64,000 nucleotides of DNA from a virus (Duplodnaviria > Caudoviricetes): positions 22,486-86,485 of IMG/VR virus record IMGVR_UViG_3300037761_000271; one strand, 5' to 3'. This document shows positions 3,323 through 39,317 of the stretch, piece after piece. The translations under genes and the position numbers were made by a program. Below the pieces are notes generated by a model. That model was given only the letters and a program-made list of their open reading frames with translations. It made no database searches and was not told the DNA's origin. Positions within the stretch are counted from its first letter, which is position 1. Every line of letters starts with the position of its first letter.

Positions 3323-3693
3323 TGGCCAGGGTGGAGAGCGCCACCTTCCCCGCGTCGGTGCCGACCGTGGAGCCGGTGCCGTGCCCGGCCGGTGACAACT
3401 GCCTGGGCCACCCGGCACTACCCGAGGGCTGGACTTCCTGGCAGGAAGCGCTGCACCGGGACGACAACTTCGCCACCTGGTCTACATGGCACCGGACCGA
3501 GCCGCTGGTGCGGGCGGAGTCGCTTGGCCACCAGGTGGAGTGGGACCCGCCGGCCGCGCTGACCACCGGCCGCCGCTGGACATGCAAAACGTGCGGCGAA
3601 GCGGTGCTGATCTATCACAACAACATCTACGGCGGGGCCATGGAGCGGACCTGCCAGGAGTCGCTGGAGTTACGGAGGGAGCGCCGTGGCTGA
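3322..3693 (+). CDS. Hypothetical protein
   Basis: Coupled ORF, CxxC. Confidence 0.55.
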   Translation: MARVESATFPASVPTVEPVPCPAGDNCLGHPALPEGWTSWQEALHRDDNFATWSTWHRTEPLVRAESLGHQVEWDPPAALTTGRRWTCKTCGEAVLIYHNNIYGGAMERTCQESLELRRERRG

Positions 3694-3958: not shown

Positions 3959-4172
3959 GCGGCTCGTCCTGGACACCGGCGCCGGGGCGCTGGTGATCGA
4001 GGCTGGGGAGCGGCCGGGGGAGCTGCTGGTGTGGCTGGGCCCGGACGACGGCCGGCGGGTGGCGCTCGCCCCAGGGCTGGTGCTGGAGCTGTGCGGCTGG
4101 CTGGAGCGGGAGCAGGTGCTGGCGCAGGCCCGGGAGGCGTTCCAGGGCAGCTTCCACGGCGGTGCGGCGTGA
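3951..4172 (+). CDS. Hypothetical protein
   Basis: GTG start overlapping the upstream stop. Confidence 0.5.
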   Translation: MGRRLVLDTGAGALVIEAGERPGELLVWLGPDDGRRVALAPGLVLELCGWLEREQVLAQAREAFQGSFHGGAA

Positions 4173-4555
4173 ACGGTGTGGTGGTGTGGCCGGTGCGGAT
4201 GCGCCGCTGGTCCCCGACCGCCGGCTGGGTGTGGGCGCTGTGGGCGTGGACCGGCCGGGATCCGCTGGCCGTGACGGTGGAAGTGGCGCTCGGCTCGGAG
4301 TGGACGCTGGCCCGTGCGCTGCTGCGGCAGGGGCTGAGCAGGCCGGCGGGGCTGGGTGCGGTGCAGGTGTTCCCGCACCGGGGCGCCGTCGCCGTCGGGC
4401 TGTACGGGCCGGGTGTGCTGACCCTGTACACCGCCCGCCGGCGGGACCTGGGCGGGTTCCTCGCCGCCACCTACCTGGTGGTGCCGGACGGGGAGGAGCG
4501 GGTGGATGTGGACGCGGCCATCGCCCGCGTGCTGGGGGAGGTGACCCGTGGTTAA
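4169..4555 (+). CDS. SsgA-family (SALP) sporulation/cell-division regulator
   Basis: DPLAV..EWTLARALLRQGLSRPAGLGAVQVFP..DLGGFLAATYLVVPDGEE matches the SsgA-like pattern. Confidence 0.8.
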   Translation: MNGVVVWPVRMRRWSPTAGWVWALWAWTGRDPLAVTVEVALGSEWTLARALLRQGLSRPAGLGAVQVFPHRGAVAVGLYGPGVLTLYTARRRDLGGFLAATYLVVPDGEERVDVDAAIARVLGEVTRG

Positions 4556-4988
4556 GGAGTGGCGGATCGCTGCCCTATGCCAGTACACCGATCCGGAGAT
4601 TTTCTTCGTCGATAAAGGTGGCTCGGTCCAGCCGGCCCTGCGGGTCTGCGGCCGGTGCGAGGGCTGGGTGCGGCAGGCGTGCCTGGCCGACGCGCTCGGG
4701 GTGGAGGCCCGGGTCGGGGGGAAGCCGTACGGCGTCCGGGGTGGGAAGACCGCCCTGCAGCGGGAAGCCCTACTGAAGGAGCGGCGTAGCCAGCCGGTGC
4801 CGGAGTCGCCGACGGTGGCGCGGGTGCGCCGGCTGGCGGCGGCGGGGATGCGGGACCACGAGATCGCCCGGCGGACCGGCAAGTCGCCGAAGGCGATCAA
4901 CACGCTCCGTCGCCGCAAGCACATCCCAGCTGGCCAGCCGACCGGCGGCGGGCGGCTGCGGGACACCGTACGGGCGGGTGTGCTGTGA
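4548..4988 (+). CDS. WhiB-family transcription factor with C-terminal HTH
   Basis: C..DPEIFF..C-x2-C..C, G(V)RGG turn, then GMRDHEIARRTGKS HTH. Confidence 0.88.
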   Translation: MVKEWRIAALCQYTDPEIFFVDKGGSVQPALRVCGRCEGWVRQACLADALGVEARVGGKPYGVRGGKTALQREALLKERRSQPVPESPTVARVRRLAAAGMRDHEIARRTGKSPKAINTLRRRKHIPAGQPTGGGRLRDTVRAGVL

Positions 4989-5350
4989 CTGGGCTGCCGA
5001 TGAGCGAGGACGAGCTGGTGACCAGCGTGTGTGACCTGGCCGCGACGGTCGGTCTGCGGGTGGCCCACTTCCGGCCGGCCCGCACCAACCGCGGCTGGCG
5101 CACACCGTTGCAGGGCAACGGTGGGGCCGGGTTCCCGGACACGGTGATCTGGGGGCCGGGCGGGCTGCTGCTGCGGGAGCTGAAACAGGACCGGGCCTAC
5201 CCGTCGCAGGTGCAGCGGCAGCGGGCTGACGAGTTGCGGGCCGCCGGCGCCGACGTGGGCGTGTGGAAGCCACGTGACTGGCACTCGGGGCGCATCCATG
5301 ACGAGCTGCGGGCGATCAGCCGCTACGCGGACAGGGGGAAACGTGTCTGA
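4985..5350 (+). CDS. VRR-NUC-like nuclease
   Basis: GFPDTV..RELK..Q..GADVGVWKP (PD-(D/E)xK). Confidence 0.8.
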   Translation: MTGLPMSEDELVTSVCDLAATVGLRVAHFRPARTNRGWRTPLQGNGGAGFPDTVIWGPGGLLLRELKQDRAYPSQVQRQRADELRAAGADVGVWKPRDWHSGRIHDELRAISRYADRGKRV

Positions 5351-5538
5351 GACGACCGAGCAGGCCGAGCCCGTGGTCCGGTTCACCCTGGCCCCCACCA
5401 GCGGGGAGAGCGGCCGGACCGGTCCGCTGCTGGTGGTGCCGCTGCCCACGGACGCCCGGCTGGTCACCGCGGTGATGCTGGCCGCCTCCGGCTGGTGGGA
5501 GCACCGCTACGGCCGGGCAAGCGAGCCCTGGAGGTGCC

Positions 5539-6804
5539 ATGCTGACCGGTCGTAGGTACCTGCTCGCGTTGACACCTGAGCAGGAGCAGTACGCCGAGCA
5601 GGTCGCCGGGATCTGTCGGGCGGTGTGGAACACCGGCCTGGAGCAACGCCGCGTCTACCGTCGGCGAGGTGCGTTTGTCGGCTACGCGCAGCAGTGCCGC
5701 GAGTTGGCGGGGGCGAAGCGGGAGCCGGGTTTGGAGTGGTTGGCCGACGCGCCGAGCCACTGCCTTCAGCAAACGTTGCGGGATCTCGACCGGGCGTGCC
5801 GGACCCATGGTACGTGGAAGGTGCGGTGGCGGTCGAAGTCTCGCACGGCACCGTCGTTCCGGTTTCCCGAAGGACCCGAGATCATCGTTGAGCGCGTGAA
5901 TCGCCGCTGGGGTCGGGTTAAGTTGCGGAGATTCGGTTGGGTGCGGTTCCGCTGGACCCGCACGCTCGGCGGCCAGATCCGCAACGCGACTGTGCTGAGG
6001 GACGGTGGCCGCTGGTGCATCTCGTTCTGCATCGAGGACGGTGTCGAGCCGGCCACGCCGAACGGGCATCCGCCGGTGGGTGTCGACCGGGGTGTGGTTG
6101 TGGCGGTGGCCACGTCCGACGGCCAGCTGCGGGACCGCGAGGTGGCCACATCCGGCGAGGCGATGCGGCTGCGGCGGTTGCACCAGCAGCTTGCCCGGTC
6201 GCGGCGGGTGCATGGCCGTAACCGTGCCTCCCGGCGACGGGACGCGACCCGACGGAAGCTGGCCGCGCTGCATTCCCACATCCGGGCGCGTCGCACCGAC
6301 TTCAACGCCTGCACGGCTCACCGCCTGACCCGAGACCACGGCCTGATCGTCGTCGAGGACCTGCGGGTTAGGAACATGACCCGATCCGCCAAGGGCACCA
6401 TCGAGGCGCCCGGCACCAATGTTCGGCAGAAGGCCAGCCTGAACCGATCGGTCTTGTCGAAGGGATGGGGGCAGCTAGTCGCCCGGCTGGAGCACAAGGC
6501 CCGGTACCACGGCTCGACCGTGGTCAAGGTCAACCCTGCATACACGTCGCAGCGTTGCTCCGCCTGTGGGCATGTGGACCCGAAGTCCCGCGAGAGCCAA
6601 GCGGTCTTCCGGTGCACAGCCTGCGGGTATACGGACAACGCGGACGTGAACGCGGCTAAGAACATCCTTGCCGCAGGGCTTGCGGTGACAGGGCGTGGAG
6701 ACCTCGCCGTTGGGCGGTCCGCGAAGCGCCAACTACCCAGAGGGAGCACGGCATTGAACCGTAACCCTGGGAACCCTTTGCCTTCAGGCGGGGGTGGACG
6801 TCAA
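5539..6804 (+). mobile_element. IS200/IS605 (IS1341-like) remnant: tnpB plus right end, no tnpA or left end seen
   Basis: Right-end hairpin GGGAACCCTTTGCCTTCAGGCGGGGGTGGACGTCAA at 6769-6804. Confidence 0.7.
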
Positions 6805-6966
6805 GAGCAGCTGTTCAGGGAGCAGGCAGCGGCAACCTCCAACGAAACGCCGGTTTCGTTGGAGGTTGAGCCCGAACGTGCAACAGACATTGGGGGTGGG
6901 GACAGGCACTCCGCCGTGGAGGACCAGCCGCCGCTCCCAGACCAGACGGGAGCCGATCGTGGCTGA
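5539..6966 (+). CDS. tnpB: TnpB RNA-guided endonuclease #1; ORF reads through the right end
   Basis: RuvC D (VGVDRG), E (VVEDL), D (NADVNAA); CxxC..CxxC zinc ribbon. Confidence 0.93.
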   Translation: MLTGRRYLLALTPEQEQYAEQVAGICRAVWNTGLEQRRVYRRRGAFVGYAQQCRELAGAKREPGLEWLADAPSHCLQQTLRDLDRACRTHGTWKVRWRSKSRTAPSFRFPEGPEIIVERVNRRWGRVKLRRFGWVRFRWTRTLGGQIRNATVLRDGGRWCISFCIEDGVEPATPNGHPPVGVDRGVVVAVATSDGQLRDREVATSGEAMRLRRLHQQLARSRRVHGRNRASRRRDATRRKLAALHSHIRARRTDFNACTAHRLTRDHGLIVVEDLRVRNMTRSAKGTIEAPGTNVRQKASLNRSVLSKGWGQLVARLEHKARYHGSTVVKVNPAYTSQRCSACGHVDPKSRESQAVFRCTACGYTDNADVNAAKNILAAGLAVTGRGDLAVGRSAKRQLPRGSTALNRNPGNPLPSGGGGRQEQLFREQAAATSNETPVSLEVEPERATDIGGGDRHSAVEDQPPLPDQTGADRG

Positions 6967-8017
6967 GCACAGCAGCATCGAGTGGACGGAAGCGACCCTC
7001 AACGTCGTCACCGGCTGCACGAAGGTCAGCGATGGGTGCATCCACTGTTACATCGAGCGGACCCCACCGTTCCGCAAGGATGGGCGCCGGTTCGACAAGC
7101 CGGGAATTGGCGGCTCGACTGGGCTGGTGTTCCACCCGGAGCGGCTGGTGCTGCCGATGCGGTGGCGAAAGCCCAGGCGGATCTTCGTAAACAGCCTCAG
7201 CGACTTGTGGCATGACGATGTGCCGGACGGGCTGATCGCCGCCTTGTGGTTCATGATGGGCCAGTCGGCCGGGATGATCCCGGAGCGGTACCGCGGCCAC
7301 ACCTTCCAGATCCTCACGAAGCGGCCGGCCCGGATGCGGGCGTGGCTGCGCAGGTGGGCCGACACCGGTGACCCGGCGATCCAGCCGATGGACCCGGCGG
7401 CCAGCCGTTGCGGCCGGGCCGAGCTGGTTGAGGCGGCGGCGGAGTATCTGGGCGGGCCGACCGCCTACGACTGGATGGATGGCCCCCGGTACTGGCCCAC
7501 CGCCCTACCTGGTGTGTGGCTCGGCGTATCGGCCGAGGACCAGCGGTCGGCCGACAACCGGATTCCGATCCTGAATGAATGCCCGGCGGTGGTGCGGTTT
7601 GTGTCCGCCGAGCCGCTGCTGGGGCCGGTCGACCTGACTCACCACCTGTCGTTCGGTCACTGCCCCGAGCATGACTTTCCGGGCGGGTTTTGCGTGCAGC
7701 GCCAGCATCCCGGCGTGCATCACCTGAACTGGGTGATCGCCGGCGGGGAGAGCGGTCCGGGGGCGCGGCCGGCCCACCCGGACTGGTTCCAGTCACTGCG
7801 TGATCAGTGCCGGCAGGCGGGCGTGGCGTTCCACTTCAAGCAGTGGGGGGAGTGGGTCTACCGCAACCAAATGCCGGAGGAAACGTACGTCCAGCTCGAC
7901 CAGGCGATCAACCTAGCCCAGGCCCACCCCGAACCGTTCCGAGTGGGGAAGAAACGCGCTGGCCGGCTGCTGGACGGGCGCACCTGGGATGAGTACCCGG
8001 AGGTGTCCCATGCCTGA
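6959..8017 (+). CDS. Phage Gp37/Gp68 (DUF5131) radical-SAM-like protein
   Basis: SIEWTEATLNVVTGCTKVSDGCIHCY; FVNSLSDL; FVSAEPLLGPVDL; WVIAGGESGPGARP. Confidence 0.92.
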   Translation: MAEHSSIEWTEATLNVVTGCTKVSDGCIHCYIERTPPFRKDGRRFDKPGIGGSTGLVFHPERLVLPMRWRKPRRIFVNSLSDLWHDDVPDGLIAALWFMMGQSAGMIPERYRGHTFQILTKRPARMRAWLRRWADTGDPAIQPMDPAASRCGRAELVEAAAEYLGGPTAYDWMDGPRYWPTALPGVWLGVSAEDQRSADNRIPILNECPAVVRFVSAEPLLGPVDLTHHLSFGHCPEHDFPGGFCVQRQHPGVHHLNWVIAGGESGPGARPAHPDWFQSLRDQCRQAGVAFHFKQWGEWVYRNQMPEETYVQLDQAINLAQAHPEPFRVGKKRAGRLLDGRTWDEYPEVSHA

Positions 8018-8018
8018 C

Positions 8019-9310
8019 CGGGATGTAGCGCGCAGGCTCCTGGCCTTCAGGCCGGTGATAGCGCACCCATTCCGTGATGACAGGACCACGTGCTATTCTG
8101 TCAACCATGTCGGGTCGGGTGGTGAGGCGGGCGTACAAGTACCGCTTCTACCCCACCCCCGCGCAGGCCGAGCAGCTGGCCAAAACGTTCGGGTGCGTCC
8201 GCTATGTCTACAACCGGGCATTGGCGGAGCGGTCGAGGGCATGGACGCAAGAGCAGCGGCGGGTCACGCATGCCGAGTCCGACCGGTGGCTAACCGCATG
8301 GAAACGGGACCCGGATACCGGGTGGCTCACCGAGCCGTCGAAGGGGCCGTTGCAGGCCACGCTGCGGCACCTGCAAACCGCGTACGTGAACTTCTGGCAG
8401 AAGCGAGCCAGGTACCCGACGTTCAAACGGAAGGGCAGGACACACGACTCGGCCACCTACTTCCGCGGCTGCTTCACCTACCGGGACGACAAGGTCACAC
8501 TGGCGAAGCAGGACCGGCCGCTGGACATCGTGTGGTCCCGCCCGCTGCCGGAGGGTGCGGTCCCGTCGCAGGTCACGGTGTCGCGGAACTCACGCGGCCA
8601 GTACCACATCTCGATCCTGGTCGAGACCACCGTTACGCCGCTGCCGACGACGGGTTCAACGGTGGGCGTGGACGTGGGGATCACCAGCCTGGTCACTCTG
8701 TCGAGCGGGGAGAAGGTCACCAACCCGCGCCACGAGAAGTGGGACCGGGCCAAGCTGCGACGCGCCCAGCGGGCGCTAGCACGGAAGCAGAAGGGATCGG
8801 CGAACCGGGCGAAAGCCAAGCTCCGGGTCGCCCGCATCCACGGACGGATCGCCGACCGCAGGCGGGACGCCCTGCACAAGCTCACCACGAGACTGGTACG
8901 CCAGCACGACGCGATCACTATCGAGGATCTGTCGGTGCGGAACATGGTGCGCAACCACAGCCTGGCCCGAGCGATTTCGGACGCATCGTGGTCGGAGCTG
9001 CGGCGGATGTTGGAGTACAAGGCCGACTGGTACGGCCGGAAGGTGATAGCGATCGACCGCTGGTACCCGTCCAGCAAGACCTGCTCGGCGTGCGGCGTGA
9101 TCGTGGAGAATCTGCCGCTGGGGGTGCGGGAGTGGACGTGCCGCTGCGGCGCGGTCCACGATCGAGACGTGAACGCGGCCAAGGTCATACACGCGGCGGG
9201 GCTCGCCGTGTCTGCCTGCGGAGGCTGAGTGAGACCGCCCCGCACTTAGTGCGGGGAGGCGTTGGCCGATGAACCAGGAATCTCCCTGCCTTCAGGCGGG
9301 AGAGCGTCAC
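8019..9310 (+). mobile_element. Complete non-autonomous IS605-type element (left end, tnpB, right end) inserted after CTGAC
   Basis: Left hairpin GGCTCCTGGCCTTCAGGCCGG; right hairpin TCTCCCTGCCTTCAGGCGGGAGA-GCGTCAC; removing it restores ATG CCT GAC|CAG CAT CAC in frame. Confidence 0.8.
8107..9228 (+). CDS. tnpB: TnpB RNA-guided endonuclease #2
   Basis: RAYKYRFYPT HTH; VGVDVG, TIEDL, DRDVNAA; zinc ribbon; leaderless promoter TGcTATTCT-7 nt-ATG. Confidence 0.95.
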   Translation: MSGRVVRRAYKYRFYPTPAQAEQLAKTFGCVRYVYNRALAERSRAWTQEQRRVTHAESDRWLTAWKRDPDTGWLTEPSKGPLQATLRHLQTAYVNFWQKRARYPTFKRKGRTHDSATYFRGCFTYRDDKVTLAKQDRPLDIVWSRPLPEGAVPSQVTVSRNSRGQYHISILVETTVTPLPTTGSTVGVDVGITSLVTLSSGEKVTNPRHEKWDRAKLRRAQRALARKQKGSANRAKAKLRVARIHGRIADRRRDALHKLTTRLVRQHDAITIEDLSVRNMVRNHSLARAISDASWSELRRMLEYKADWYGRKVIAIDRWYPSSKTCSACGVIVENLPLGVREWTCRCGAVHDRDVNAAKVIHAAGLAVSACGG

Positions 9311-9546
9311 CAGCATCACGTGTCGACGGACTGGTTTCGCCGCCGCGGCGGCTGGGCGTGGTGGTGTTCCTGTCTGACCGACGGTGAGGGGGTGTACCCG
9401 GACGGGGACGGTGCCCGCCGGTCCGGGGCCCGGCATCAGGCCGAGCGGGTGGCTGAGGCGTTGGCCCACGGCGCACCCCAGGTTGCAGCCGCTGCCGGGC
9501 TTGTAGGTGCGTGGGATGCCGGTAGCCCACAAGGCGGTGACGGGAA

Positions 9547-32131: not shown

Positions 32132-32458
32132 ATGTTTCGGAGCGGGGAGGTCCGGCTCGTGGCAGCTCGAACAAGGCGGCTCCGTGCGGTAGGGCCAGGT
32201 GAGTCCGCGCAGGGAAGGAAGCCACCGCGTGTGACGGTAGCGGCCCAGAGCGGCAGCCACAGGGATCTGCTGGTCGCTCTGCGGTCCAGGATTGCCCAGG
32301 CAGTCGAGGACCCGAACACGCCACCCCGGGATCTGGCGTCACTGTCGCGGCGGCTGCTGGAGATCGCTAAGGAGATCGAGGCGATCGATGCCGACGACCA
32401 GGGGGACGAAGTTGGTGCGGCAGCCGCGACGCCGGACGAACCGTGGGCTGCTACCTGA
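32132..32458 (+). CDS. Terminase small subunit
   Basis: RDLLVALRSRIA..PPRDLASLSRRLLEIAKEIE; synteny. Confidence 0.75.
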   Translation: MFRSGEVRLVAARTRRLRAVGPGESAQGRKPPRVTVAAQSGSHRDLLVALRSRIAQAVEDPNTPPRDLASLSRRLLEIAKEIEAIDADDQGDEVGAAAATPDEPWAAT

Positions 32459-33902
32459 GGCCCGTCACCTGATCTTGCCGAAGGGGATCCGGTCGTCCGG
32501 GTTCCCTTCGGTGCGGGAGACGTGCCGACGTGTCGGTATCGAGTTCGACCGGTGGCAGCAGGATCTGAACAGGTGCCTGCTGGCCAAGGACGCGGCCGGG
32601 TTGTACGCGGCCGACACCGCGGTGCTGTCGATCGCGCGCCAGGTGGGTAAGACCTTCGACGTGGGTGCGGTGGCGTTCGCGTTGTGTATCGCCACGCCGG
32701 GTCTGACGGTGGTGTGGACGGCGCACCGGTTCAAGGTGTCGCGCGAGTCATTCAACGAGATGCGGGCATGGGCGAAACGGCGCCAGCTCGCCGCGCACAT
32801 CGACTACGACGAGATCACCACTGGGGCGGGGAACGAGCAGATCCCGTTCCGCAATGATGCCCGGATCGTGTTCGCGGCCCGGGAGCGTGGGGCGATCCGC
32901 GGGTTCACCAAGGTCGGGGTGCTGGTGCTGGACGAGGCGCAGATCCTGACCGAGGCGGCGCTGTCGGACCTGGTGCCGACGACCAACCAGGCGCCGAACC
33001 CGCTGGTGATCCTGATGGGCACACCGCCGAAGCCGACCGACCCGAGTGAGGTTTTTGTCCGGCTGCGGCAGGAGGCGCTGGACGGCGAGTCGGATGATGT
33101 GCTGTACGTCGAGCTGTCCGCCGACGCGAACGCCGACCCGAACGACCGTAGGCAGTGGCGCAAGGCGAACCTGTCGTACCCGGCCCGCACGTCGGAGCGG
33201 GCGATCCTGCGGCTGAAGAAGCTGCTGTCGGCCGAGGATTTCCTGCGGGAGGGGCTGGGGGTCTGGCCGGAGGGCGGCCTACCGAAGTGGCAGGTAATCA
33301 GCGAGGCGGCGTGGCTGGCCCGGCAGAAGACCACCCGCGCGCAGCTTCGGCTGGTCGACCCGGTGACGCTGGGGGTGGATGTCACCCCGGACCGGACCTG
33401 GTCGGCGGTCGCCGCCGCCGGTGACCGGGTCGGTGGCGGCCGGGCGGTGGAGGTCACCGCCGACCCGCAGGCGGCCGAGCTGCGGGACCGGGTGGACTAC
33501 CGGCCGGGCACCGGCTGGGTGATACCCCGGCTGAAGACGCTGGTGGAACGCAACCGGCCGTGTGTGATCGTGATATCGGACCGGGCGCTGTTCGAGGAGG
33601 CCGAGGCGGCTGGGCTGCCGGCCTACCGGGCCAGCACCGGCGACCTGGCGTCGGCGGCGGCGAAGCTGTACGACGGGATCGCCGGCACCACCCCGGACGT
33701 GTGGCACTCACCCGACCCGGACCTGGCCGATGCGGCGGCGGGGGCGACGAAGCGTCCGCTCGGCGATGGGTGGGCGTGGGACCGCCGCTCGGTCAGCGTC
33801 AACATCTGCACCCTGGTCGCCACCAGCCTGGCGTTGTGGGGGGCGGCAACACCTCGCATCCACGTTGCCCGGTTGACCCCGTTCGCCCTCGTCGGCAGCT
33901 AG
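32415..33902 (+). CDS. Terminase large subunit
   Basis: IARQVGKT Walker A, LVLDEAQ Walker B, MGTPP, LGVD nuclease motif. Confidence 0.93.
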   Translation: MRQPRRRTNRGLLPEARHLILPKGIRSSGFPSVRETCRRVGIEFDRWQQDLNRCLLAKDAAGLYAADTAVLSIARQVGKTFDVGAVAFALCIATPGLTVVWTAHRFKVSRESFNEMRAWAKRRQLAAHIDYDEITTGAGNEQIPFRNDARIVFAARERGAIRGFTKVGVLVLDEAQILTEAALSDLVPTTNQAPNPLVILMGTPPKPTDPSEVFVRLRQEALDGESDDVLYVELSADANADPNDRRQWRKANLSYPARTSERAILRLKKLLSAEDFLREGLGVWPEGGLPKWQVISEAAWLARQKTTRAQLRLVDPVTLGVDVTPDRTWSAVAAAGDRVGGGRAVEVTADPQAAELRDRVDYRPGTGWVIPRLKTLVERNRPCVIVISDRALFEEAEAAGLPAYRASTGDLASAAAKLYDGIAGTTPDVWHSPDPDLADAAAGATKRPLGDGWAWDRRSVSVNICTLVATSLALWGAATPRIHVARLTPFALVGS

Positions 33903-33905
33903 ATA

Positions 33906-34000
33906 CCCTCGCCTTGCCCCGCCTGGCCAAGCCAGGCCCGGCCTTGCCGCACCTAGCCATGCCCGGACTCGCCGTACCCAGCCGTGCCCCGCCAGGCCAC
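33906..34000 (-). ncRNA. NN-GGY pentamer array 3 (putative guide RNA)
   Basis: 18 consecutive 5-nt units at 33911-34000 (17 GGY, 1 GTC) plus a terminal GAGGG; starts right after the stop codon at 34002. Confidence 0.85.
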
Positions 34001-34001
34001 G

Positions 34002-34541
34002 CTAACTTTCTCCTCGCTCCAGCCGCTCCAGCCGAGCCTTGAGTTCCGCGATCTCCTCCTCGGACCGCTCGTGACGCTGGTCCATCGACGACAGGGACTC
34101 CTCCAGCCGTTTCTGTCGGATGTCCATCCGCCGGTTGAAGTCCATCTGTGCGGCGAATGCCCGCGCAACCAGCTCGAATGCCTGCCGGGTGTCCGGGTCC
34201 ATGCCCGAGAAGTCGACGTGGACCACCTTCGAATGACCGGAGCGTAGCGCCCGGTTCGACTTCCGCTGCTGCTGGCGGGCAAGCTGCATGTGCTCGGGTG
34301 GCCTCACCACCCGATAGCCCTGGTTGGGGACCGCCTCGACCGCCCGCTTGTCGATCAGCTCATGTTCGCGGGCGGCCCGCCGCATCGCCATCTGTAGCTG
34401 GTGCCGGTCCCGGACAGGATGCAGGCCGAGGGCGTCACCCATCTGCTGGTAGGTGAGGGTGTGGGCGGTCTCGGTGGCCCGGAGCAGGTCGTAGACGATC
34501 CGCCACCGGGGTTGCTCGCCGAGTGGCTGGAATGGTGCCAT
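34002..34541 (-). CDS. Accessory protein: winged-helix-like N-terminus, coiled-coil C-terminus
   Basis: TLTYQQMGDALGL..AMRRA..VPNQGYRV; TGATG-coupled to the RAMP gene. Confidence 0.75.
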   Translation of the reverse strand: MAPFQPLGEQPRWRIVYDLLRATETAHTLTYQQMGDALGLHPVRDRHQLQMAMRRAAREHELIDKRAVEAVPNQGYRVVRPPEHMQLARQQQRKSNRALRSGHSKVVHVDFSGMDPDTRQAFELVARAFAAQMDFNRRMDIRQKRLEESLSSMDQRHERSEEEIAELKARLERLERGES

Positions 34542-35113
34542 CACGCGGTCTCGACCTTGGCGATGAACCGGCCGTAACGGGGGCGCCAGTCGCCCAGCCC
34601 GATCAGTTGTCCGGCGGTTTCGGCGATCGCCTCGACCTCGGCCAGGTCGATGACGTTGGTATCGATGTAGCCGAGGGCATCGGTGCGCCACTCGCGGAAC
34701 ATGGGCCGGCAGCGCATGACCCGCTGCTGCCCGACCTTGGCGGACGCCAGCAGTCGGAAGTTCTCATCGGCCCACAGTCCGGCCGCGTCGCGTGGCCCGC
34801 GGTAGGCGAGCGGGTTCAGGTCGGACTTGATGAACACGCCTTCCTTGACCTTCGGCCCGCGCTTGGACTTCTTCGCCGCGTCGTAAAGGGCGCGCCAGAT
34901 GTTCTCACCGGGGATGAATGGGCCGATCTCCGAGTCGATGTAGAGCGACCCGGCGTGCTCCAGCCGGGCGATCTGTTCGTGGTCATCGTCGGTCTTGTTG
35001 CGCTTCCCGGTGATCCGCTTCATGGCCTTTGCGGCTGGGTCGAGCGGGTTGGACAGCCTGCCGCTGTGCATGAGCAGGCTGGTTGTGCCTTCGATGGTGA
35101 TGCGGAAGTCCAT
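34541..35113 (-). CDS. Stand-alone Cas7/RAMP-like RNA-binding protein (190 aa)
   Basis: ITIEGTTSLLMH first strand, PFIPGENIWRAL (cf. RAMP PYIPGSSLKGAL), C-terminal G-loop IGLGDWRPRYGRF; RBS GAGGAG. Confidence 0.8.
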   Translation of the reverse strand: MDFRITIEGTTSLLMHSGRLSNPLDPAAKAMKRITGKRNKTDDDHEQIARLEHAGSLYIDSEIGPFIPGENIWRALYDAAKKSKRGPKVKEGVFIKSDLNPLAYRGPRDAAGLWADENFRLLASAKVGQQRVMRCRPMFREWRTDALGYIDTNVIDLAEVEAIAETAGQLIGLGDWRPRYGRFIAKVETA

Positions 35114-35139
35114 TTCCCCGTGCTCCTCGTGTTGGTAGT

Positions 35140-35214
35140 TCCCTGCCGCGCCCAGCCGTGCCTCGCCGAGCCCAACCTAGCCAGGCCGCGCCGGGCCCGG
35201 CCCCGCCCCGCCTT
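35140..35214 (-). ncRNA. NN-GGY pentamer array 2 (putative guide RNA)
   Basis: 14 perfect NN-GGY units at 35145-35214 plus a terminal AGGGA. Confidence 0.87.
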
Positions 35215-35217
35215 GCG

Positions 35218-35259
35218 TGCGGTGGTCGGGAGTCGAACCCGACTGATGACCATCACCGC
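35218..35259 (-). ncRNA. tRNA-like minihelix between arrays 1 and 2
   Basis: GCGGTG/CACCGC stem plus GTCGGG-TTCGACT-CCCGAC T-arm, followed by a discriminator-like A. Confidence 0.75.
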
Positions 35260-35261
35260 GC

Positions 35262-35336
35262 CCCATGCCCCGCCTCGACAAGCCGTGCCAAACCAAGACT
35301 CGCCACGCCCAGCCTCGCCTGGCCAAGCCGTGCACC
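35262..35336 (-). ncRNA. NN-GGY pentamer array 1 (putative guide RNA)
   Basis: 13 units at 35267-35331 (11 GGY, 2 GTC) plus a terminal ATGGG. Confidence 0.85.
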
Positions 35337-35339
35337 CGC

Positions 35340-35380
35340 AATATACCACGCTTTACGGGATACATACCACGTCTATACCG
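35340..35380 (-). promoter_or_regulatory. Extended -10 promoter of the cassette with direct repeats
   Basis: TGgTATATT at 35348-35340, about 7 nt before array 1; ATACCACG at 35343 and 35364 (21 bp apart). Confidence 0.65.
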
Positions 35381-35398
35381 TGATAGAGGGGATGCTGT

Positions 35399-36787
35399 GT
35401 GAGCTGGTGGCGGAGGCTGCTGGGGCTCCAGCGGGCCACCAGCACCGAGTTGCAGAAACGGTCGGCCCTGTCCTGGCAGGATTATGTTGATCTTTTCAGT
35501 TTTGGTGGCTCCAGCTATCCGCTGCTGAACACCACCATGGCCTCGATGAACGAGGAGGCCATCGGGTCGACCCTGTCGCAGGTGGCCAAGTCCAACGGGC
35601 CGGTATTCGCGCTGCTGCTCGCCCGGCTACAGGTGTTCTCCCAGGCCCGGTTCCAGTGGACCCGCTTCGACCGGGGGGCGCCCGCCGACCTGTTCGGCAC
35701 GGACGAGCTGGCTGTGCTGGAGCGGCCGTGGCCGGGTGGAACCACCGCGGACCTGCTCGCCCGGATGGAGATCCAGGTCACCACTGCCGGGAACGCCTAT
35801 GTGCGCCGGGTCGGCCGGGGCGAGAAGTCCCGGCTGATCTGCCTGCGGCCGGAGTGGATGTACATCGTCCTCGGGTCGCAGACCGACGCCGACCACCCGG
35901 CCGAAGCCGCCGACGTGGAGCTGCTCGGCTACGTCTACAAGCCACCCAACGCGAAGATGGTCACGTTCCTGCCCGAGGAGATCGCTCACTACGCGCCGAT
36001 CCCGGACCCGGACGCCACCTACCTGGGCATGTCCTGGATCACCGCCGCCCTGCGGGACATCTCCGGCGACAACCTGATGACCGACCACAAGCGCGCCTTC
36101 CTCCGCAACGCGGCCACCCCCAACATGGTGATCAAGTTCGACCCCAGCATCACGCTTGCGGCGGTCAAGGAGTTCAAAGAGGTCTTCGAGGCCGAGCACC
36201 AGGGCGCGCTGAACGCATACAAGACGGTGTACCTGGGCGGCGGCGCCGACGCGACCGTGGTCGGCAAAGACTTCCAGCAGTTGGAGTTCGCGGTCACCCA
36301 GGGCAAGGCCGAGTCGCGGCTGGCATCCTGCGCCGGGGTCCCCCCGTCCTGGGTCGGATTCTCCGAAGGGCTCCAGGGTTCGTCGCTCAACGCGGGCAAC
36401 TTCACCGCCGCCAGGCGCCGCTTCGGCGACGGAACCATGCAGCACATGTGGATGAACGTCGCCGCCAGCCTGGAGATCCTGGTCCGCCGACCCAGCGTCG
36501 GCGTGTACCTGTGGTTCGCCACGAAGGGCATCCCGTTCCTGCACATGGACGCGAAGGACGCGGCCGAGGTGCAGGCCACCGAGGCGCAGACCATCACCGC
36601 GCTGGTGCGGGACGGGTTCACCGCCCAGTCGGCGATCCTCGCGGTCCAGAACCACGACTGGTCCCGCCTGGTGCACACCGGGAGGGTTTCTGTCCAGCTC
36701 CAGACCCCCGGTGAGGCGGACGCGGCGCAGGTCAACGGCAACGGCGCCCGGCGCGGAGAGCTGATCGTCGGTGCCCTGCGGCCATGA
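35399..36787 (+). CDS. Portal protein (HK97-like)
   Basis: GNAYVRR, LRPEW, FLRNAATP, VPPSWVG; position after terL. Confidence 0.92.
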   Translation: MSWWRRLLGLQRATSTELQKRSALSWQDYVDLFSFGGSSYPLLNTTMASMNEEAIGSTLSQVAKSNGPVFALLLARLQVFSQARFQWTRFDRGAPADLFGTDELAVLERPWPGGTTADLLARMEIQVTTAGNAYVRRVGRGEKSRLICLRPEWMYIVLGSQTDADHPAEAADVELLGYVYKPPNAKMVTFLPEEIAHYAPIPDPDATYLGMSWITAALRDISGDNLMTDHKRAFLRNAATPNMVIKFDPSITLAAVKEFKEVFEAEHQGALNAYKTVYLGGGADATVVGKDFQQLEFAVTQGKAESRLASCAGVPPSWVGFSEGLQGSSLNAGNFTAARRRFGDGTMQHMWMNVAASLEILVRRPSVGVYLWFATKGIPFLHMDAKDAAEVQATEAQTITALVRDGFTAQSAILAVQNHDWSRLVHTGRVSVQLQTPGEADAAQVNGNGARRGELIVGALRP

Positions 36788-36809
36788 CAACTCCAGGACG
36801 GAGACGGAT

Positions 36810-39317
36810 GTGACCACCACAACGGTGACCGGTGTGGACCTGCGGTCCGCGCTGCGGCTGTGCTACCGGTCGGTGGAGTTCCGCGCCACCGGGCCGGTCG
36901 GCGACGGGCGCACCCTGGAAGGCTACGCCGCGGTCTTCGACACCCCCACGATCATCGAGTCGTTCGCCGGGGACTTCGAGGAGGTTGTCAAGCGGGGCGC
37001 GTTCCGCAAGACGCTGCGGGACCGCATGCCGGTGATGCAGTTCGACCACGGCAACGACAAGCGCACCGGCAGTGTGCCGATCGCCTCGATCGAGGATCTG
37101 CGGGAGGACGACGAAGGTCTGTTCGTCAACGCGCGGCTGTTCGCCAACGACGTGGTGGAACCGATCCGGCAGGCAGTCGCAGGCAAAGCCATCCGCGGCA
37201 TGTCGTTCAAGTTCCGGGTGATCCGGGACCAGTGGGTCGACCGTGACGGGAAGAAGATCCCCGCCGACGACCTGGCCGGCCTGCTTGAGAACCCGGGCGA
37301 CCGCGGGCCGATCCGCCGGGAGATCCAAGAGGTCGAACTGTTCGAACTGGGCCCGGTGGTGTTCCCGGCCTACACGCAGACCAGTGTCGGCGTACGTGGC
37401 TCCCGGTTCGACTCTAACGCCGTGGCGGTGCGGGGTGTGCTGGGCCAGTTCGGGCTGGATGAGCGTTGCGTGCAGCGGCACCTGGCCGGGTTCGACCCGC
37501 AGGAGCGGCAGGTCCTCGCCGAAGAGGTGGTGGCCGCGTTCCCGGAGCTGGCCGACCTGCTGACCGCGCGGGCCACCCCACCGGCCGACCCGGCGCCGGC
37601 TGCCGAGCCCGAGCCTGAGCCGACCCCACCCGCACCAGTACCCACCCCGCCCCCGGCGCCTTCCCCGGCCCCGCCGGGCGGTGCCCAGAGCTCCCCGCAG
37701 CCGGCCGCGGCCACTGCGGGACCCACCACCACCGAGCCGGCCCCCAGCCACTCGGCGTCCAAGCCGGAGCCGCGTAAGCACTCCAAGGCACCCAAGCCGC
37801 CGGTAGCCAGCCGTGCGGCGACCAAGCCAGCCACAACTAGCCAGAGGAGTGACAACGTGCAGCCCACGATGACCGTGGACGAACGGCGGGAGCGGCAGGA
37901 GGAGATCCGCGCCCGCCTCACCGAGATCGACAACGAGTACATGGGTGCCGCCCTGCCGGATGAGACCCGGGAGGAGTGGGGCCGGCTGTCCGAGGAGCAC
38001 CAGACCCACCAGGTGGCCATCGACGACGCGGAGCGGCGCCGGGTCAACCTGGAGAGCCTGTTCGCCCAGGGCCGCGGCGTGGAGGGTGGCGCCGGGATCA
38101 CCACGGTGACCACCCCGGGTCTGCTGGCCAAGCGCACCGACTCGGACCTGTACGACCTGCGGGAGATCCGCCGGTCGGCATCCTCGGAGGATGACCTGCG
38201 CCGGCTGTACCGGGAGCGGGCCTACGAGGCGGTGGAGCGGGCCAAGTTCCCCGGGCAGAAGAACAAGGAGCGGGCGCAGGCCCGGGCGCTGGAGCTGCTG
38301 GACACGGTCGACGACGAGTCGGCGACCCTGGCCCGGCGGATGCTGGCCACCGGATCCCCGCTGTACGACCGCGCGTTCGGTAAGGCGGTGCTGGCCCGGT
38401 CCACCTCCGGGCTGACCGCGGAGGAGGCCCGGGCGCTGTCCGTGGGCTCCGACTCCGACGGCGGGTTCGCCGTCCCGTTCCAGCTCGACCCGACGATCAT
38501 CCTCACGTCGGACGGGTCCAGCAACCCGCTGCGGCAGATCAGCCGGGTGGAGACGATCGTCGGCAAGGAATGGCAGGGTGTCACCTCCGCCGGGATCACG
38601 GTCACCCGCACCCCGGAGGTGCAGGAGGCCACCGACGACGCGCCCGAGGTGGACCAGCCGGTCGTTCGGCCCAGCGCGGTGCACGCGTTCGTTCCGTTCT
38701 CCATGGACGTGGAGCAGGACTGGACGCGGCTGCGGGCCGAGATGACCCGGCTGCTGAACAACGCCAAGGACGACGAAGAGGCCGAGTCGTTCGTCAACGG
38801 CGACGGGTCCCTGATCAGTGGCGGCGGGCACACCCCGGACGGCATCGCCGCCGGGCTGGCCGCGGCCAGCGAGGTACCCGGCGGCGCGTCGTTCACCTCC
38901 CAGGACCTGTACGACCTGGAGGCCGGCGACAACGGGCTGGGTGAGCGGTTCCTCGCCCGGGCCGTCTGGCTGGCCAACCGCAGCATCTACAACCTGGTGC
39001 GGCAGTTCGACACCTCCGGTGGTGCCGACCTGTGGGTGCGGCTCGGCGCGGGTCAGCCACCTGAGCTGATCGGCTACTCGGCCTTCCGCGCCTCGGCGAT
39101 GCCGTCCAGCCCCACCGGCCGGTACCTGATCCTGGGCGACTTCAACGAGTTCCTGGTTGTGGACCGTGTCGGCATGTCGGTCGAGCTTGTGCCTCATTTG
39201 TTCGGTGCGGCCCGGCGGTTCCCGACCGGGCAGCGGGGCATCTACGCCCGGTGGCGGAACACCACCAAGATCCTGGTGGACAACGCGTTCCGAGTCCTGA
39301 CGGACGACGAGTCCTGA
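36810..39317 (+). CDS. Fused HK97-type prohead protease, linker and major capsid protein; internal start at 37857
   Basis: LEGYAAVFD, FDHG, MSFKF, ELFELGPVVFPAY protease; DGGFAVP capsid; internal GAGGAG RBS. Confidence 0.92.
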   Translation: MTTTTVTGVDLRSALRLCYRSVEFRATGPVGDGRTLEGYAAVFDTPTIIESFAGDFEEVVKRGAFRKTLRDRMPVMQFDHGNDKRTGSVPIASIEDLREDDEGLFVNARLFANDVVEPIRQAVAGKAIRGMSFKFRVIRDQWVDRDGKKIPADDLAGLLENPGDRGPIRREIQEVELFELGPVVFPAYTQTSVGVRGSRFDSNAVAVRGVLGQFGLDERCVQRHLAGFDPQERQVLAEEVVAAFPELADLLTARATPPADPAPAAEPEPEPTPPAPVPTPPPAPSPAPPGGAQSSPQPAAATAGPTTTEPAPSHSASKPEPRKHSKAPKPPVASRAATKPATTSQRSDNVQPTMTVDERRERQEEIRARLTEIDNEYMGAALPDETREEWGRLSEEHQTHQVAIDDAERRRVNLESLFAQGRGVEGGAGITTVTTPGLLAKRTDSDLYDLREIRRSASSEDDLRRLYRERAYEAVERAKFPGQKNKERAQARALELLDTVDDESATLARRMLATGSPLYDRAFGKAVLARSTSGLTAEEARALSVGSDSDGGFAVPFQLDPTIILTSDGSSNPLRQISRVETIVGKEWQGVTSAGITVTRTPEVQEATDDAPEVDQPVVRPSAVHAFVPFSMDVEQDWTRLRAEMTRLLNNAKDDEEAESFVNGDGSLISGGGHTPDGIAAGLAAASEVPGGASFTSQDLYDLEAGDNGLGERFLARAVWLANRSIYNLVRQFDTSGGADLWVRLGAGQPPELIGYSAFRASAMPSSPTGRYLILGDFNEFLVVDRVGMSVELVPHLFGAARRFPTGQRGIYARWRNTTKILVDNAFRVLTDDES

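What the first reader, a model, noticed from the sequence alone, without database searches (positions are those of the whole stretch)
35218..35259. tRNA-mimic minihelix separating two guide arrays, a possible host RNase P/RNase Z processing signal
Seen: 5'-GCGGTG atggtcatca GTCGGG TTCGACT CCCGAC CACCGC A-3'. The 6-bp acceptor-like stem stacks on a 6-bp T stem with a canonical TTCGACT loop, giving 12 bp, the same as a tRNA acceptor+T helix (7+5). There is no anticodon arm and no CCA. Knowledge: RNase P and RNase Z recognise this top-half structure. Inference: host tRNA-processing enzymes cut the precursor to release guides 1 and 2 without a Cas6, a natural analogue of tRNA-gRNA multiplexing.
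Basis: partly seen in the sequence, partly recalled or inferred. Interest (0 to 1): 0.85.

Follow-up and report, generated by a model that had tools for sequence, protein, structure and literature searches.

The report
tRNA-like separator between phage guide RNAs
A 42-base RNA fold that copies the top half of a tRNA separates two guide RNAs of a phage VIPR system (a CRISPR relative described in 2026); the same fold also sits between ordinary genes in hundreds of actinobacterial phages, so it looks like a general, undescribed "cut here" mark read by the host.

Summary
On the minus strand, 35259->35218 folds as a 6-bp outer stem, a 10-nt linker, a 6-bp stem with a TTCGACT loop, then A and no CCA. 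It separates two NNGGY pentamer arrays.

The cassette is a VIPR system (bioRxiv 10.64898/2026.04.26.720920). The 190-aa gene matches the solved SUSP1 Vipr protein (E 1e-30) and the arrays are vrRNAs.

The minihelix belongs to a conserved, covarying family. My covariance model found 93 copies in 37 of about 82 Vipr loci, all on the vipr strand. Copies sit at 58 of 62 array-to-array junctions but rarely at array ends.

The T-loop, the G53-C61 pair and a D-loop-like GG linker match tRNA consensus.

New here: the family does not depend on VIPR. Streptomyces phage Endor1 has nine copies between ordinary genes and no Vipr. Mycobacterium phage Oaker has six or seven. BLAST finds 144 phage records, none annotated, and Rfam has no family.

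This favours recognition by host tRNA-processing enzymes over Vipr, but no RNA ends were available, and the family's usual stack is 11 bp, not 12.

None of the four VIPR papers I read mentions tRNA. Two earlier follow-ups in this scan reported the same separators on other genomes.

The parts
35340..35348 (-). Putative extended -10 promoter element (TGGTATATT) of the cassette. The likely transcription start is about 7-8 nt downstream, at the CACG motif (about 35331-35332).
   Evidence: Read from the sequence. The same GTGGTATATTGC, followed 7 nt later by CACG, is conserved in L005, L006 and L007. The simple sigma-70 scan did not call it, so this is inference.
35260..35332 (-). vrRNA array 1: 13-14 NNGGY units, ending in GGCATGGGGC.
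   Evidence: Periodicity scan; units parsed.
35218..35259 (-). tRNA-like minihelix. Outer stem 35254-35259 pairs with 35219-35224. Linker 35244-35253, with its GG at 35250-35251. Inner (T-like) stem 35238-35243 pairs with 35225-35230. T-loop TTCGACT at 35231-35237. Unpaired A at 35218.
   Evidence: covariance model hit at 35215-35261(-), 40 bits; family covariation.
35140..35217 (-). vrRNA array 2: a CGC lead plus 15 NNGGY units. It runs straight into the vipr 5' untranslated region (Shine-Dalgarno GAGGAG at about 35123-35128) with no separator.
34541..35113 (-). vipr gene (190 aa), a RAMP/Cas7-like protein that binds the guide RNA.
   Evidence: phmmer against PDB chain 36pp_D 'SUSP1 Vipr protein', E 9.8e-31 over the full length. 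AlphaFold2 pLDDT 93. Top Foldseek hits are Csm3/Cas7. phrog_4652.
34002..34541 (-). vap-like accessory gene (179 aa), coupled to vipr through an ATGA overlap. Probably a DNA-binding protein.
   Evidence: phrog_5926. The syntenic gene in Gordonia phage MakoManhole is annotated 'DNA binding protein'. Weak positional similarity to the Mijalis vap-position gene, E 7e-4.
33906..34000 (-). vrRNA array 3: 19 units. It starts right after the vap stop codon, and its tail overlaps the terL stop codon. No minihelix follows it.
   Evidence: No stable fold lies downstream.

Best explanation
The element is one copy of a widespread family of about 46-nt RNA elements in actinobacterial phages that mimic the tRNA 'elbow'. 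Each has an acceptor-like stem stacked on a canonical T-arm, plus a D-loop-like linker whose GG can dock on the T-loop.

It acts at the RNA level as punctuation in polycistronic transcripts. In this window it marks the border between vrRNA 1 and vrRNA 2 of a type II-like VIPR cassette.

The most likely mechanism is that host tRNA-maturation enzymes read it. RNase Z, or another 3'-end endonuclease, would cut just after the unpaired purine and create the CGC... 5' end of vrRNA 2. RNase P may cut at G35259 and create the 3' end of vrRNA 1.

Shown here: the structure, its conservation, its tRNA-consensus features, its placement at junctions, and its independence from Vipr.

Inferred: which enzymes act, where exactly they cut, and whether the minihelix is released or stays on vrRNA 1 as a 3' cap.
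For: 1. Structure.
- RNAalifold on 60 copies independently returns 5 bp + 11-nt linker + 6 bp + 7-nt loop.
- 95-96% of cells are paired against 64-66% in shuffles. The covariation score is 0.750 against 0.17 shuffled and at most 0.17 when the partner is slid.
- In a test that does not select for pairing, GTTCRA hexamers within 90 nt of an array on the vipr strand carry both stems in 58 of 81 cases. Elsewhere the figures are 4 of 184 and 2 of 204.

2. Strand and specificity.
- All 93 model hits are on the vipr strand.
- In whole VIPR-carrying phage genomes the hits lie only in the VIPR locus.

3. tRNA mimicry, from 78 distinct copies.
- G53-C61 in 77 of 77.
- Loop: T (77), T (67), C (78), R (78), A (71), N, Y.
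- Linker R-N-Y-G(72)-G(77)-Y-A resembles A14-R15-Y16-G18-G19-Y20-A21. The tRNA consensus is from my own knowledge.
- The base after the stem is a purine in 100% of copies, and none is followed by CCA.

4. Separator logic.
- The element is at 58 of 62 array-to-array junctions.
- It precedes only about 9 of 51 first arrays and follows about 8 of 34 last arrays.
- The closest relative (L005/L018, Vipr 92% identical) has single arrays and no minihelix.
- Where arrays abut coding sequences on the same transcript (Trine, L035, L059/L060), minihelices flank them on both sides.

5. The motif after the minihelix (R-CGC) matches the CACG found 7 nt downstream of the conserved extended -10 where an array starts at a promoter. 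In Endor1, which has no arrays, the trailing motif is ACTG/ACTC instead.

6. Independence from Vipr.
- Endor1 has 9 copies, each 3-13 nt after a stop codon between co-directional genes. It has no Vipr and no arrays.
- Oaker has 6-7 intercistronic copies.
- BLAST finds 144 phage records and 874 places.

7. Precedents.
- tRNA-like t-elements flanking a crRNA are cut by RNase P and RNase Z to give functional guides in Haloferax (PMC6546412).
- Hammerhead ribozymes occupy the same inter-vrRNA position in other VIPR types (10.64898/2026.04.26.720920).
Against: - There is no RNA-end or expression data.
- The family's usual coaxial stack is 11 bp (42 of 75 copies) rather than the 12 bp of a tRNA, and the outer stem is 5-6 bp. 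Chen et al. attribute the failure of RNase P to cut some tRNA-like Y RNAs to the lack of a 7-bp acceptor stem (PMC4201824).
- The base before the stem is mostly A or C, not the U that RNase P prefers (my own knowledge).
- Array 2 runs into the vipr mRNA and array 3 ends without a minihelix. Other nucleases, or protection by Vipr followed by trimming, must define those ends and could define all ends.
- In the SUSP1 clade the structured element after each array is retained as a 3' tail that caps the filament (10.64898/2026.04.26.720927).
- The copies used for the first covariation count were picked by a scan that required pairing. address this only in part.
Confidence: 0.55

Rival explanations
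1. The minihelix is a nuclease-resistant structural cap or boundary. It is not cut out by tRNA enzymes. It stays on the upstream RNA as a 3' tail, as the SUSP1 pseudoknot does, blocks 3'-to-5' exonucleases, and stops the Vipr filament from spreading into the next array. Some other RNase (E, J or III) cuts the single-stranded RNA after it.
For: In the SUSP1 clade the structured 3' tail is retained and caps the filament. tRNA-like modules have been proposed to protect Y RNAs from exonucleases (PMC4201824). In Endor1 and Oaker the element sits 3-60 nt after stop codons, the position taken by mRNA-stabilising REP elements (the REP comparison is my own knowledge). The outer stem is short at 5-6 bp.
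Against: Two of the three arrays in this window, and both arrays of the closest relative, have no such cap, so it is not needed for a vrRNA. A plain hairpin would do as a cap, and other Vipr clades do use plain hairpins. Yet here the T-loop consensus and the linker GG are held almost invariant. In Trine, L035 and L059/L060 a copy also precedes the first array.
Confidence: 0.28
2. Vipr itself, being a RAMP protein, or the vap protein recognises the hairpin and processes the array as Cas6 does, or uses the hairpin as its loading handle.
For: Vipr has a Cas7/Csm3-like RAMP fold. Cas6 RAMPs cut at repeat hairpins (my own knowledge). The SUSP1 tail is said to make vrRNAs competent for Vipr complex formation.
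Against: The same element is abundant in phages without Vipr or arrays: Endor1, Oaker, and 113 Streptomyces phage records. Arrays without a minihelix exist next to vipr.
Confidence: 0.04
3. The element works at the DNA level or is a relic: a decayed tRNA gene, an attP core, a protein-binding palindrome, or a small mobile repeat with no RNA function.
For: It resembles the 3' half of a tRNA, which is a common phage integration target. It is repeated many times per genome.
Against: It is strictly strand-specific relative to transcription: 93 of 93 hits, plus all Endor1 and Oaker copies. Compensatory changes include G-U pairs, which would be C-A mismatches on the other strand. The unpaired loop and linker bases are conserved. 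No integrase lies next to it, and up to 8 copies sit inside one array block. There is no U tract of the kind a terminator needs.
Confidence: 0.04

Closest known systems
VIPR systems, type II (Escherichia phage SUSP1, Pseudomonas fulva prophage); bioRxiv 10.64898/2026.04.26.720920, 10.64898/2026.04.26.720927 and 10.64898/2026.10.15.759431
   Same: There is a Vipr homologue (E 1e-30 to the solved SUSP1 protein). A small DNA-binding-type accessory gene lies downstream. Arrays of 13-19 NNGGY units sit on the same strand before and after the genes. The cassette is phage-borne.
   Different: SUSP1-type vrRNAs each carry a 3' pseudoknot tail, which I also saw in Mijalis. Here the structured element is a tRNA top-half mimic, found only at junctions and missing after 2 of the 3 arrays. 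None of the four VIPR papers contains the words tRNA, RNase P or RNase Z. Their figures could not be read.
Hammerhead-ribozyme-interspersed vrRNA arrays (VIPR types I and V; fig. S19 of 10.64898/2026.04.26.720920)
   Same: A structured RNA module lies between adjacent vrRNAs and is thought to cut the array into units.
   Different: That module cleaves itself. The element here is too small for that, matches no ribozyme family, and would depend on host enzymes.
Engineered tRNA-flanked guides: the Haloferax icrRNA 't-elements' (PMC6546412) and polycistronic tRNA-gRNA arrays (the latter from my own knowledge)
   Same: tRNA-like structures flank guide RNAs, so RNase P and RNase Z release them without Cas6.
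   Different: Those are synthetic and use whole tRNAs or t-elements. This one is natural, lacks the D stem and the anticodon arm, and cleavage has not been shown.
Natural tRNA punctuation and tRNA-like processing signals: mitochondrial polycistrons, MALAT1 mascRNA, gammaherpesvirus 68 tRNA-miRNA transcripts (all from my own knowledge)
   Same: tRNA-shaped modules inside long transcripts mark where RNase P and RNase Z cut.
   Different: Those systems are eukaryotic or organellar and use full or nearly full cloverleaves. Here a 46-nt minihelix sits in bacteriophage operons and guide arrays.
tRNA-like domain of bacterial and phage Y RNAs (YrlA), PMC4201824
   Same: It mimics the tRNA T-arm, D-arm and acceptor in bacteria and phages. 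The M. smegmatis YrlA is cut by RNase P and receives CCA.
   Different: YrlA is one module of a roughly 100-nt RNA that binds Ro60 and is encoded next to rsr. The element here is free-standing, repeated 1-10 times per genome, has no D stem, and is not linked to Ro60.
REP/BIME intercistronic palindromes of enterobacteria (my own knowledge)
   Same: They are short repeated structured elements just after stop codons inside operons.
   Different: REPs are plain imperfect hairpins without a T-loop or a D-loop-like linker.

Membership tests
VIPR system (type II-like) | A Vipr protein, that is a RAMP homologous to a characterised Vipr | tested here: met
   phmmer against PDB 36pp_D 'SUSP1 Vipr protein': E 9.8e-31, residues 4-187 against 5-189. 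AlphaFold2 pLDDT 93. Best Foldseek hits are Csm3/Cas7.
VIPR system (type II-like) | vrRNA arrays of tandem YNNGG/NNGGY pentamers (9-16 units published) flanking vipr on its strand | tested here: met
   Three arrays of 13-14, 15 and 19 units, all on the minus strand, and the only ones in the 86-kb record. Array 3 is longer than the published range.
VIPR system (type II-like) | An accessory vap gene next to vipr, with a predicted DNA-binding product in type II | tested here: inconclusive
   A coupled 179-aa gene. It matches phrog_5926 of unknown function. The MakoManhole orthologue is annotated as DNA binding. Similarity to the Mijalis counterpart is only E 7e-4. I made no fold.
VIPR system (type II-like) | vrRNAs are expressed, bound by Vipr, and target DNA by the 1-nt-skip rule | not testable with these tools
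   No RNA runs were listed. No 1-nt-skip match for arrays 1 and 2 in the window (up to 3 mismatches) or in IMG/VR (exact).
tRNA gene | Cloverleaf with a D stem and an anticodon arm | tested here: not met
   ARAGORN finds 0 genes in the window. Rfam shows no tRNA hit even at E up to 10. Only 10 nt lie between the two stems.
tRNA gene | T-arm consensus: G53, T54, T55, C56, R57, A58, Y60, C61 | tested here: met
   The window copy reads GG-TTCGACT-CC. For the family: G-C closing pair 77 of 77, then T 77, T 67, C 78, R 78, A 71, and Y 67 of 78.
Substrate of RNase P / RNase Z (tRNA-like minihelix) | Coaxial acceptor plus T-stem stack of 12 bp, with an acceptor stem of 7 bp | tested here: inconclusive
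   The window copy is 6+6 = 12 bp. Across the family, 42 copies have 11 bp, 23 have 12 bp and 6 have 13 bp, and the outer stem is mostly 5-6 bp.
Substrate of RNase P / RNase Z (tRNA-like minihelix) | Elbow: a GG like D-loop G18-G19, available to dock on the T-loop | tested here: met
   The linker GG is conserved in 72 and 77 of 78 copies, inside an R-N-Y-G-G-Y-A motif. The tertiary contact itself was not modelled.
Substrate of RNase P / RNase Z (tRNA-like minihelix) | An unpaired purine 'discriminator' with no encoded CCA (CCA blocks RNase Z; my own knowledge) | tested here: met
   The base is A in 55 and G in 23 of 78 copies, followed by CGC in most VIPR copies and CTG/CTC in Endor1.
Substrate of RNase P / RNase Z (tRNA-like minihelix) | Actual cleavage at the stem borders | not testable with these tools
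   No RNA-holding runs. The accessible papers contain no processing data for actinobacterial VIPR loci.
Self-cleaving ribozyme separator (hammerhead and others) | A match to a known ribozyme family | tested here: not met
   Rfam 15 shows none at E up to 10 over 33850-35420 and none in the Endor1 region.
Intrinsic terminator | A GC-rich hairpin followed by a U tract | tested here: not met
   The stem is followed by ACGCAAGG. The scan finds no minus-strand terminator in 33700-35500.

The most novel reading that the evidence does not exclude
Actinobacterial phages use a dedicated 46-nt tRNA-elbow mimic as general transcript punctuation. Host RNase P and/or RNase Z would cut polycistronic phage RNAs at these marks, between early genes (Endor1, Oaker and more than 100 Streptomyces phages) as well as between VIPR guide RNAs. 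That would make it a bacterial-virus counterpart of mitochondrial tRNA punctuation and a natural version of tRNA-gRNA multiplexing.
Probability: 0.4. Interest if true: 0.85.

Novelty: new variant of a known kind. Interest (0 to 1): 0.72.

Why it matters
For VIPR, it would explain how multi-guide arrays in actinobacterial phages are split into single guides without a Cas6-like enzyme or a ribozyme. It would also offer a compact, host-independent separator for engineered vrRNA arrays.

More broadly, it points to an unannotated RNA family. It is present 4-10 times per genome in well-studied Streptomyces and Mycobacterium phages, is absent from Rfam, and is sometimes buried under mis-called ORFs. 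It may govern mRNA processing or stability in phage early operons.

Cultured carrier phages and tractable hosts (M. smegmatis, S. coelicolor, Gordonia terrae) exist, so the idea can be tested directly.

Tried and rejected
- ARAGORN and Rfam (gathering thresholds, then E up to 10) on the window gave no tRNA, tmRNA, ribozyme or other family at the element. The only weak Rfam hits were chance matches to eukaryotic families: mir-1842 and SNORD67.
- An attP or tRNA-fragment reading: the 26-nt 3' half occurs once in the record and no full tRNA shares it. I dropped this reading once the element proved to be repeated inside arrays.
- A purely structural scan without the T-loop constraint gave 411 hits on each strand, so it is useless in 65-70% GC DNA.
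- Single-sequence folding with flanks does not recover the minihelix.
- Sequencing runs: no RNA holder was listed. There were only 3 sediment-metagenome DNA runs, one of them probably the source.
- 1-nt-skip targets of arrays 1 and 2: none in the window at up to 3 mismatches and no exact match in IMG/VR. Natural targets tolerate mismatches, so this says little.
- The sigma-70 promoter scan called nothing.
- ARAGORN on 83 related loci found no true tRNA between arrays. It gave only false calls built on a minihelix or on arrays.
- Literature searches for tRNA-like, pentanucleotide or intergenic elements in Streptomyces phages found nothing relevant.
- The whole-genome model search of five bacterial genomes scored only 150 of 4,600-9,500 candidates each, so it was not exhaustive.

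Full report
**1. The observation**

The window is bases 22486-86485 of an 86.5-kb IMG/VR virus record of about 70% GC.
- a 6-bp outer stem (GCGGTG with CACCGC);
- a 10-nt linker (ATGGTCATCA);
- a 6-bp inner stem (GTCGGG with CCCGAC) closing a TTCGACT loop;
- an unpaired A followed by CGC, so no CCA.

ARAGORN and Rfam call nothing here. Folded alone, the sequence gives -19.5 kcal/mol and z -2.7, and the minimum-energy fold is a different one. Folded with its flanks it is no better than shuffles. One sequence therefore does not establish the structure.

**2. Context: a VIPR cassette**

The genes around the element are as follows.
- TerL (32292-33902, +), portal (35399-36787, +) and a protease-capsid fusion (36771-39317, +) are ordinary head genes.
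- Between terL and portal lies an antisense cassette of two coupled genes, 34541-35113 and 34002-34541 on the minus strand.
- Three arrays with a strict 5-nt period (NNGGY) flank those genes. They are the only such arrays in the record and all lie on the minus strand.

[quoted passage not shown] Each has a roughly 20-kDa RAMP protein (Vipr), an accessory vap gene, and vrRNAs of 9-16 YNNGG repeats whose NN dinucleotides pair with DNA while skipping one base per unit.

The 190-aa protein here matches the solved SUSP1 Vipr chain (PDB 36pp_D, E 9.8e-31, full length). Its AlphaFold2 model (pLDDT 93) is closest to Csm3/Cas7. The "guide arrays" and the "RAMP-like gene" are therefore a known system. 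The family is large: 2,475 cluster representatives, including phages of Gordonia, Mycobacterium, Pseudomonas and enterobacteria. The closest bacterial copies are in actinomycetes: Streptantibioticus, Planomonospora and Streptosporangium.

**3. The minihelix is a conserved, covarying family**

In Gordonia phages MakoManhole and Trine, in Mycobacterium phage LittleE, and in IMG/VR relatives, the arrays on the vipr strand are separated by about 42-46-nt elements. These share the architecture but have different stem sequences.

I collected 80 further Vipr loci and ran these tests.
- A scan requiring a T-loop-like 7-mer and two stems gave 88 hits on the vipr strand against 7 on the other.
- In a test that does not select for pairing, GTTCRA hexamers near arrays carry both stems in 58 of 81 cases, against 4 of 184 and 2 of 204 elsewhere.
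- On 60 copies, RNAalifold independently returned 5 bp + 11-nt linker + 6 bp + 7-nt loop.
- Pair counts gave 95% paired (64% shuffled), 168 cells changed on both sides (40 shuffled), and a covariation score of 0.750 (0.17 shuffled, at most 0.17 slid). The model-based alignment gave the same picture.
- A covariance model (R1) found 93 copies at E up to 0.01 in 37 of about 82 loci, all on the vipr strand. One of them is this window's copy.
- In six virus records that carry VIPR, four of them at least 90% complete, every hit lies inside the VIPR locus.

**4. How tRNA-like is it?**

Across 78 distinct copies:
- the pair closing the loop is G-C in 77 of 77;
- the loop reads T, T, C, R, A, N, Y, which is the G53-T54-T55-C56-R57-A58-Y60-C61 consensus;
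- the linker reads R-N-Y-G-G-Y-A-N-N-C-A, with the GG present in 72 and 77 of 78 copies. This resembles the D-loop A14-R15-Y16-G18-G19-Y20-A21 (my own knowledge of the tRNA consensus). It suggests an elbow contact between T-loop and D-loop made without a D stem;
- the base after the outer stem is always a purine, and CCA never follows.

Against full mimicry, the stack is 11 bp in 42 of 75 copies and 12 bp, as in this window, in 23. The outer stem is usually 5-6 bp.

**5. It behaves as a separator, not as an obligatory handle**

In the 35 loci that have minihelices (the thresholds are approximate):
- 58 of 62 array-to-array junctions carry one;
- only about 9 of 51 first arrays are preceded by one;
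- only about 8 of 34 last arrays are followed by one.

In this window only one of the three arrays is followed by a minihelix. The closest relative (Vipr 92% identical) has single arrays and none. Where arrays abut coding sequences within a transcript (Trine, L035, L059/L060), minihelices flank them on both sides.

In VIPR loci the bases after the element are R-CGC. Where an array starts at the conserved TGGTATATT box, CACG lies 7 nt downstream. A cut at the 3' border would therefore give nearly the same 5' end as transcription initiation.

Other Vipr clades use different separators: a pseudoknot in SUSP1-like Mijalis and plain hairpins in others. The VIPR paper also reports hammerhead ribozymes in this position.

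**6. The family does not depend on VIPR**

- A BLAST search with this window's copy hit Streptomyces phage Endor1.
- Endor1 has nine R1 hits (39-55 bits), all on the strand of its leftward early genes. Each lies in an 80-190-nt gap between co-directional genes and starts 3-13 nt after the upstream stop codon.
- Endor1 has no Vipr homologue and no GGY arrays.
- The Endor1 copy matches 144 phage records at 874 places. Of these, 113 are Streptomyces phages with 5-10 places each, and no listed record has an annotation under its best match.
- The LittleE copy also finds Mycobacterium phages (Oaker, Damien, Konstantine, Send513, Papyrus and others), plus Microbacterium and Gordonia phages.
- Oaker has six clear copies and one weak one, each between co-directional genes.
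- A Streptosporangium genome has a solo copy between two coding sequences, 41 kb from its vipr.
- Rfam has no matching family, and my literature searches found no description.

**7. Mechanism**

The element works in phages that lack Vipr. It keeps the tRNA features that define the elbow rather than just any hairpin, and it sits at borders between RNA units. The best reading is therefore that host tRNA-maturation enzymes recognise it.
- RNase Z or an equivalent would cut after the purine. The absence of CCA fits this.
- RNase P may cut at the first stem base.

Precedents exist. Engineered t-elements let RNase P and RNase Z release functional crRNAs (PMC6546412), and M. smegmatis YrlA is cut by RNase P (PMC4201824).

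The same Y RNA paper warns that tRNA-like RNAs without a 7-bp acceptor stem were not cut. It also suggests that tRNA-like modules can simply protect RNAs from exonucleases. The main rival is therefore a retained 3' cap or filament boundary. I give host tRNA-enzyme processing 0.55, the cap reading 0.28, and about 0.04 each to Vipr-dependent processing and to DNA-level or relic readings.

**8. Novelty**

The VIPR system is published. None of the four VIPR papers available to me mentions tRNA, RNase P or RNase Z, although I could not see their figures. Two earlier follow-ups in this scan reached the reading "tRNA-like separators in VIPR guide array" on other genomes.

- a family model and the junction statistics;
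- the D-loop-like linker;
- the 11-bp caveat;
- the finding that the element is a general intercistronic feature of actinobacterial phages.

**Limits**

- There is no RNA evidence.
- E-values from the short model calibration are rough.
- The Klebsiella phage hits were not examined and may be true tRNA T-arms.
- The searches of bacterial genomes were partial.

Noticed in passing
L130 (Streptomyces phage Endor1, MT711978.1 43485-48601, minus strand): Nine copies of the same minihelix family lie between co-directional early genes. Each starts 3-13 nt after a stop codon. The phage has no Vipr and no GGY arrays. Similar copies occur in 113 Streptomyces phage records, and no listed record has an annotation under its best match.
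   Followed up: yes
L131 (Mycobacterium phage Oaker, KF986247.1 38090-44137): Six clear minihelix copies and one weak one, each in the gap between co-directional genes 41-53. Related Mycobacterium phages (Damien, Konstantine, Send513, Papyrus and others) have 4-5 BLAST places each.
   Followed up: partly
L128:2006-2051 (Streptosporangium sp. DT93, G007:C7:90305-90350): A solo minihelix between a small gene and an HU-like gene, with no arrays nearby, about 41 kb from that genome's vipr locus.
   Followed up: partly
L004:2054-2443 (LittleE gene 35) and L003:3091-3894 (Trine gene 40): Annotated coding sequences lie over vrRNA arrays and minihelices. LittleE gp35 is on the opposite strand, across two arrays. 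The annotated start of Trine gp40 puts minihelix-array-minihelix-array-minihelix inside the ORF. An ATG near 3389, preceded by a ribosome-binding site, looks like the real start.
   Followed up: partly
L026:1696-1780, L050:2789-2857, L060:3209-3302, L082:3100-3191: ARAGORN makes false tRNA calls (Glu, Ser, Leu, undetermined). It uses a minihelix as the 3' half, or an array as a long variable arm. This is a likely source of spurious tRNA annotations in phages that carry VIPR.
   Followed up: partly
window 35340-35380 (minus strand): The box CGTGGTAT occurs twice, 21 nt apart, the second copy overlapping the putative extended -10. This may be an operator for the winged-helix-like vap product.
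   Followed up: no
L005/L018 compared with window 35140-35332: The closest relative (Vipr 92% identical) has entirely different NN dinucleotides, different unit numbers, and one long upstream array of about 25 units. Guide content therefore turns over much faster than the protein.
   Followed up: partly
window 33900-33910: The tail of array 3 overlaps the stop codon of the convergent terL gene. The cassette transcript would therefore run antisense into the 3' end of terL. No terminator-like fold follows.
   Followed up: partly
window 36771-39317: A single 848-aa ORF joins an S78 prohead protease domain (residues 37-213) to an HK97-type major capsid domain (564-844).
   Followed up: no
L016:2680-2960 and 4080-4480 (Citrobacter phage Mijalis); L017:2070-2400 (Pseudomonas phage LESphi2): In enterobacterial VIPR loci the repeat is NNGGT, and every array is followed by a pseudoknot-type tail. 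In the Pseudomonas locus the arrays are followed by plain hairpins. The separator module differs between clades.
   Followed up: partly
one search hit list (58 Klebsiella phage records): The LittleE minihelix query also matched many Klebsiella phages at 80-90% identity. These may be genuine tRNA T-arms rather than family members.
   Followed up: no
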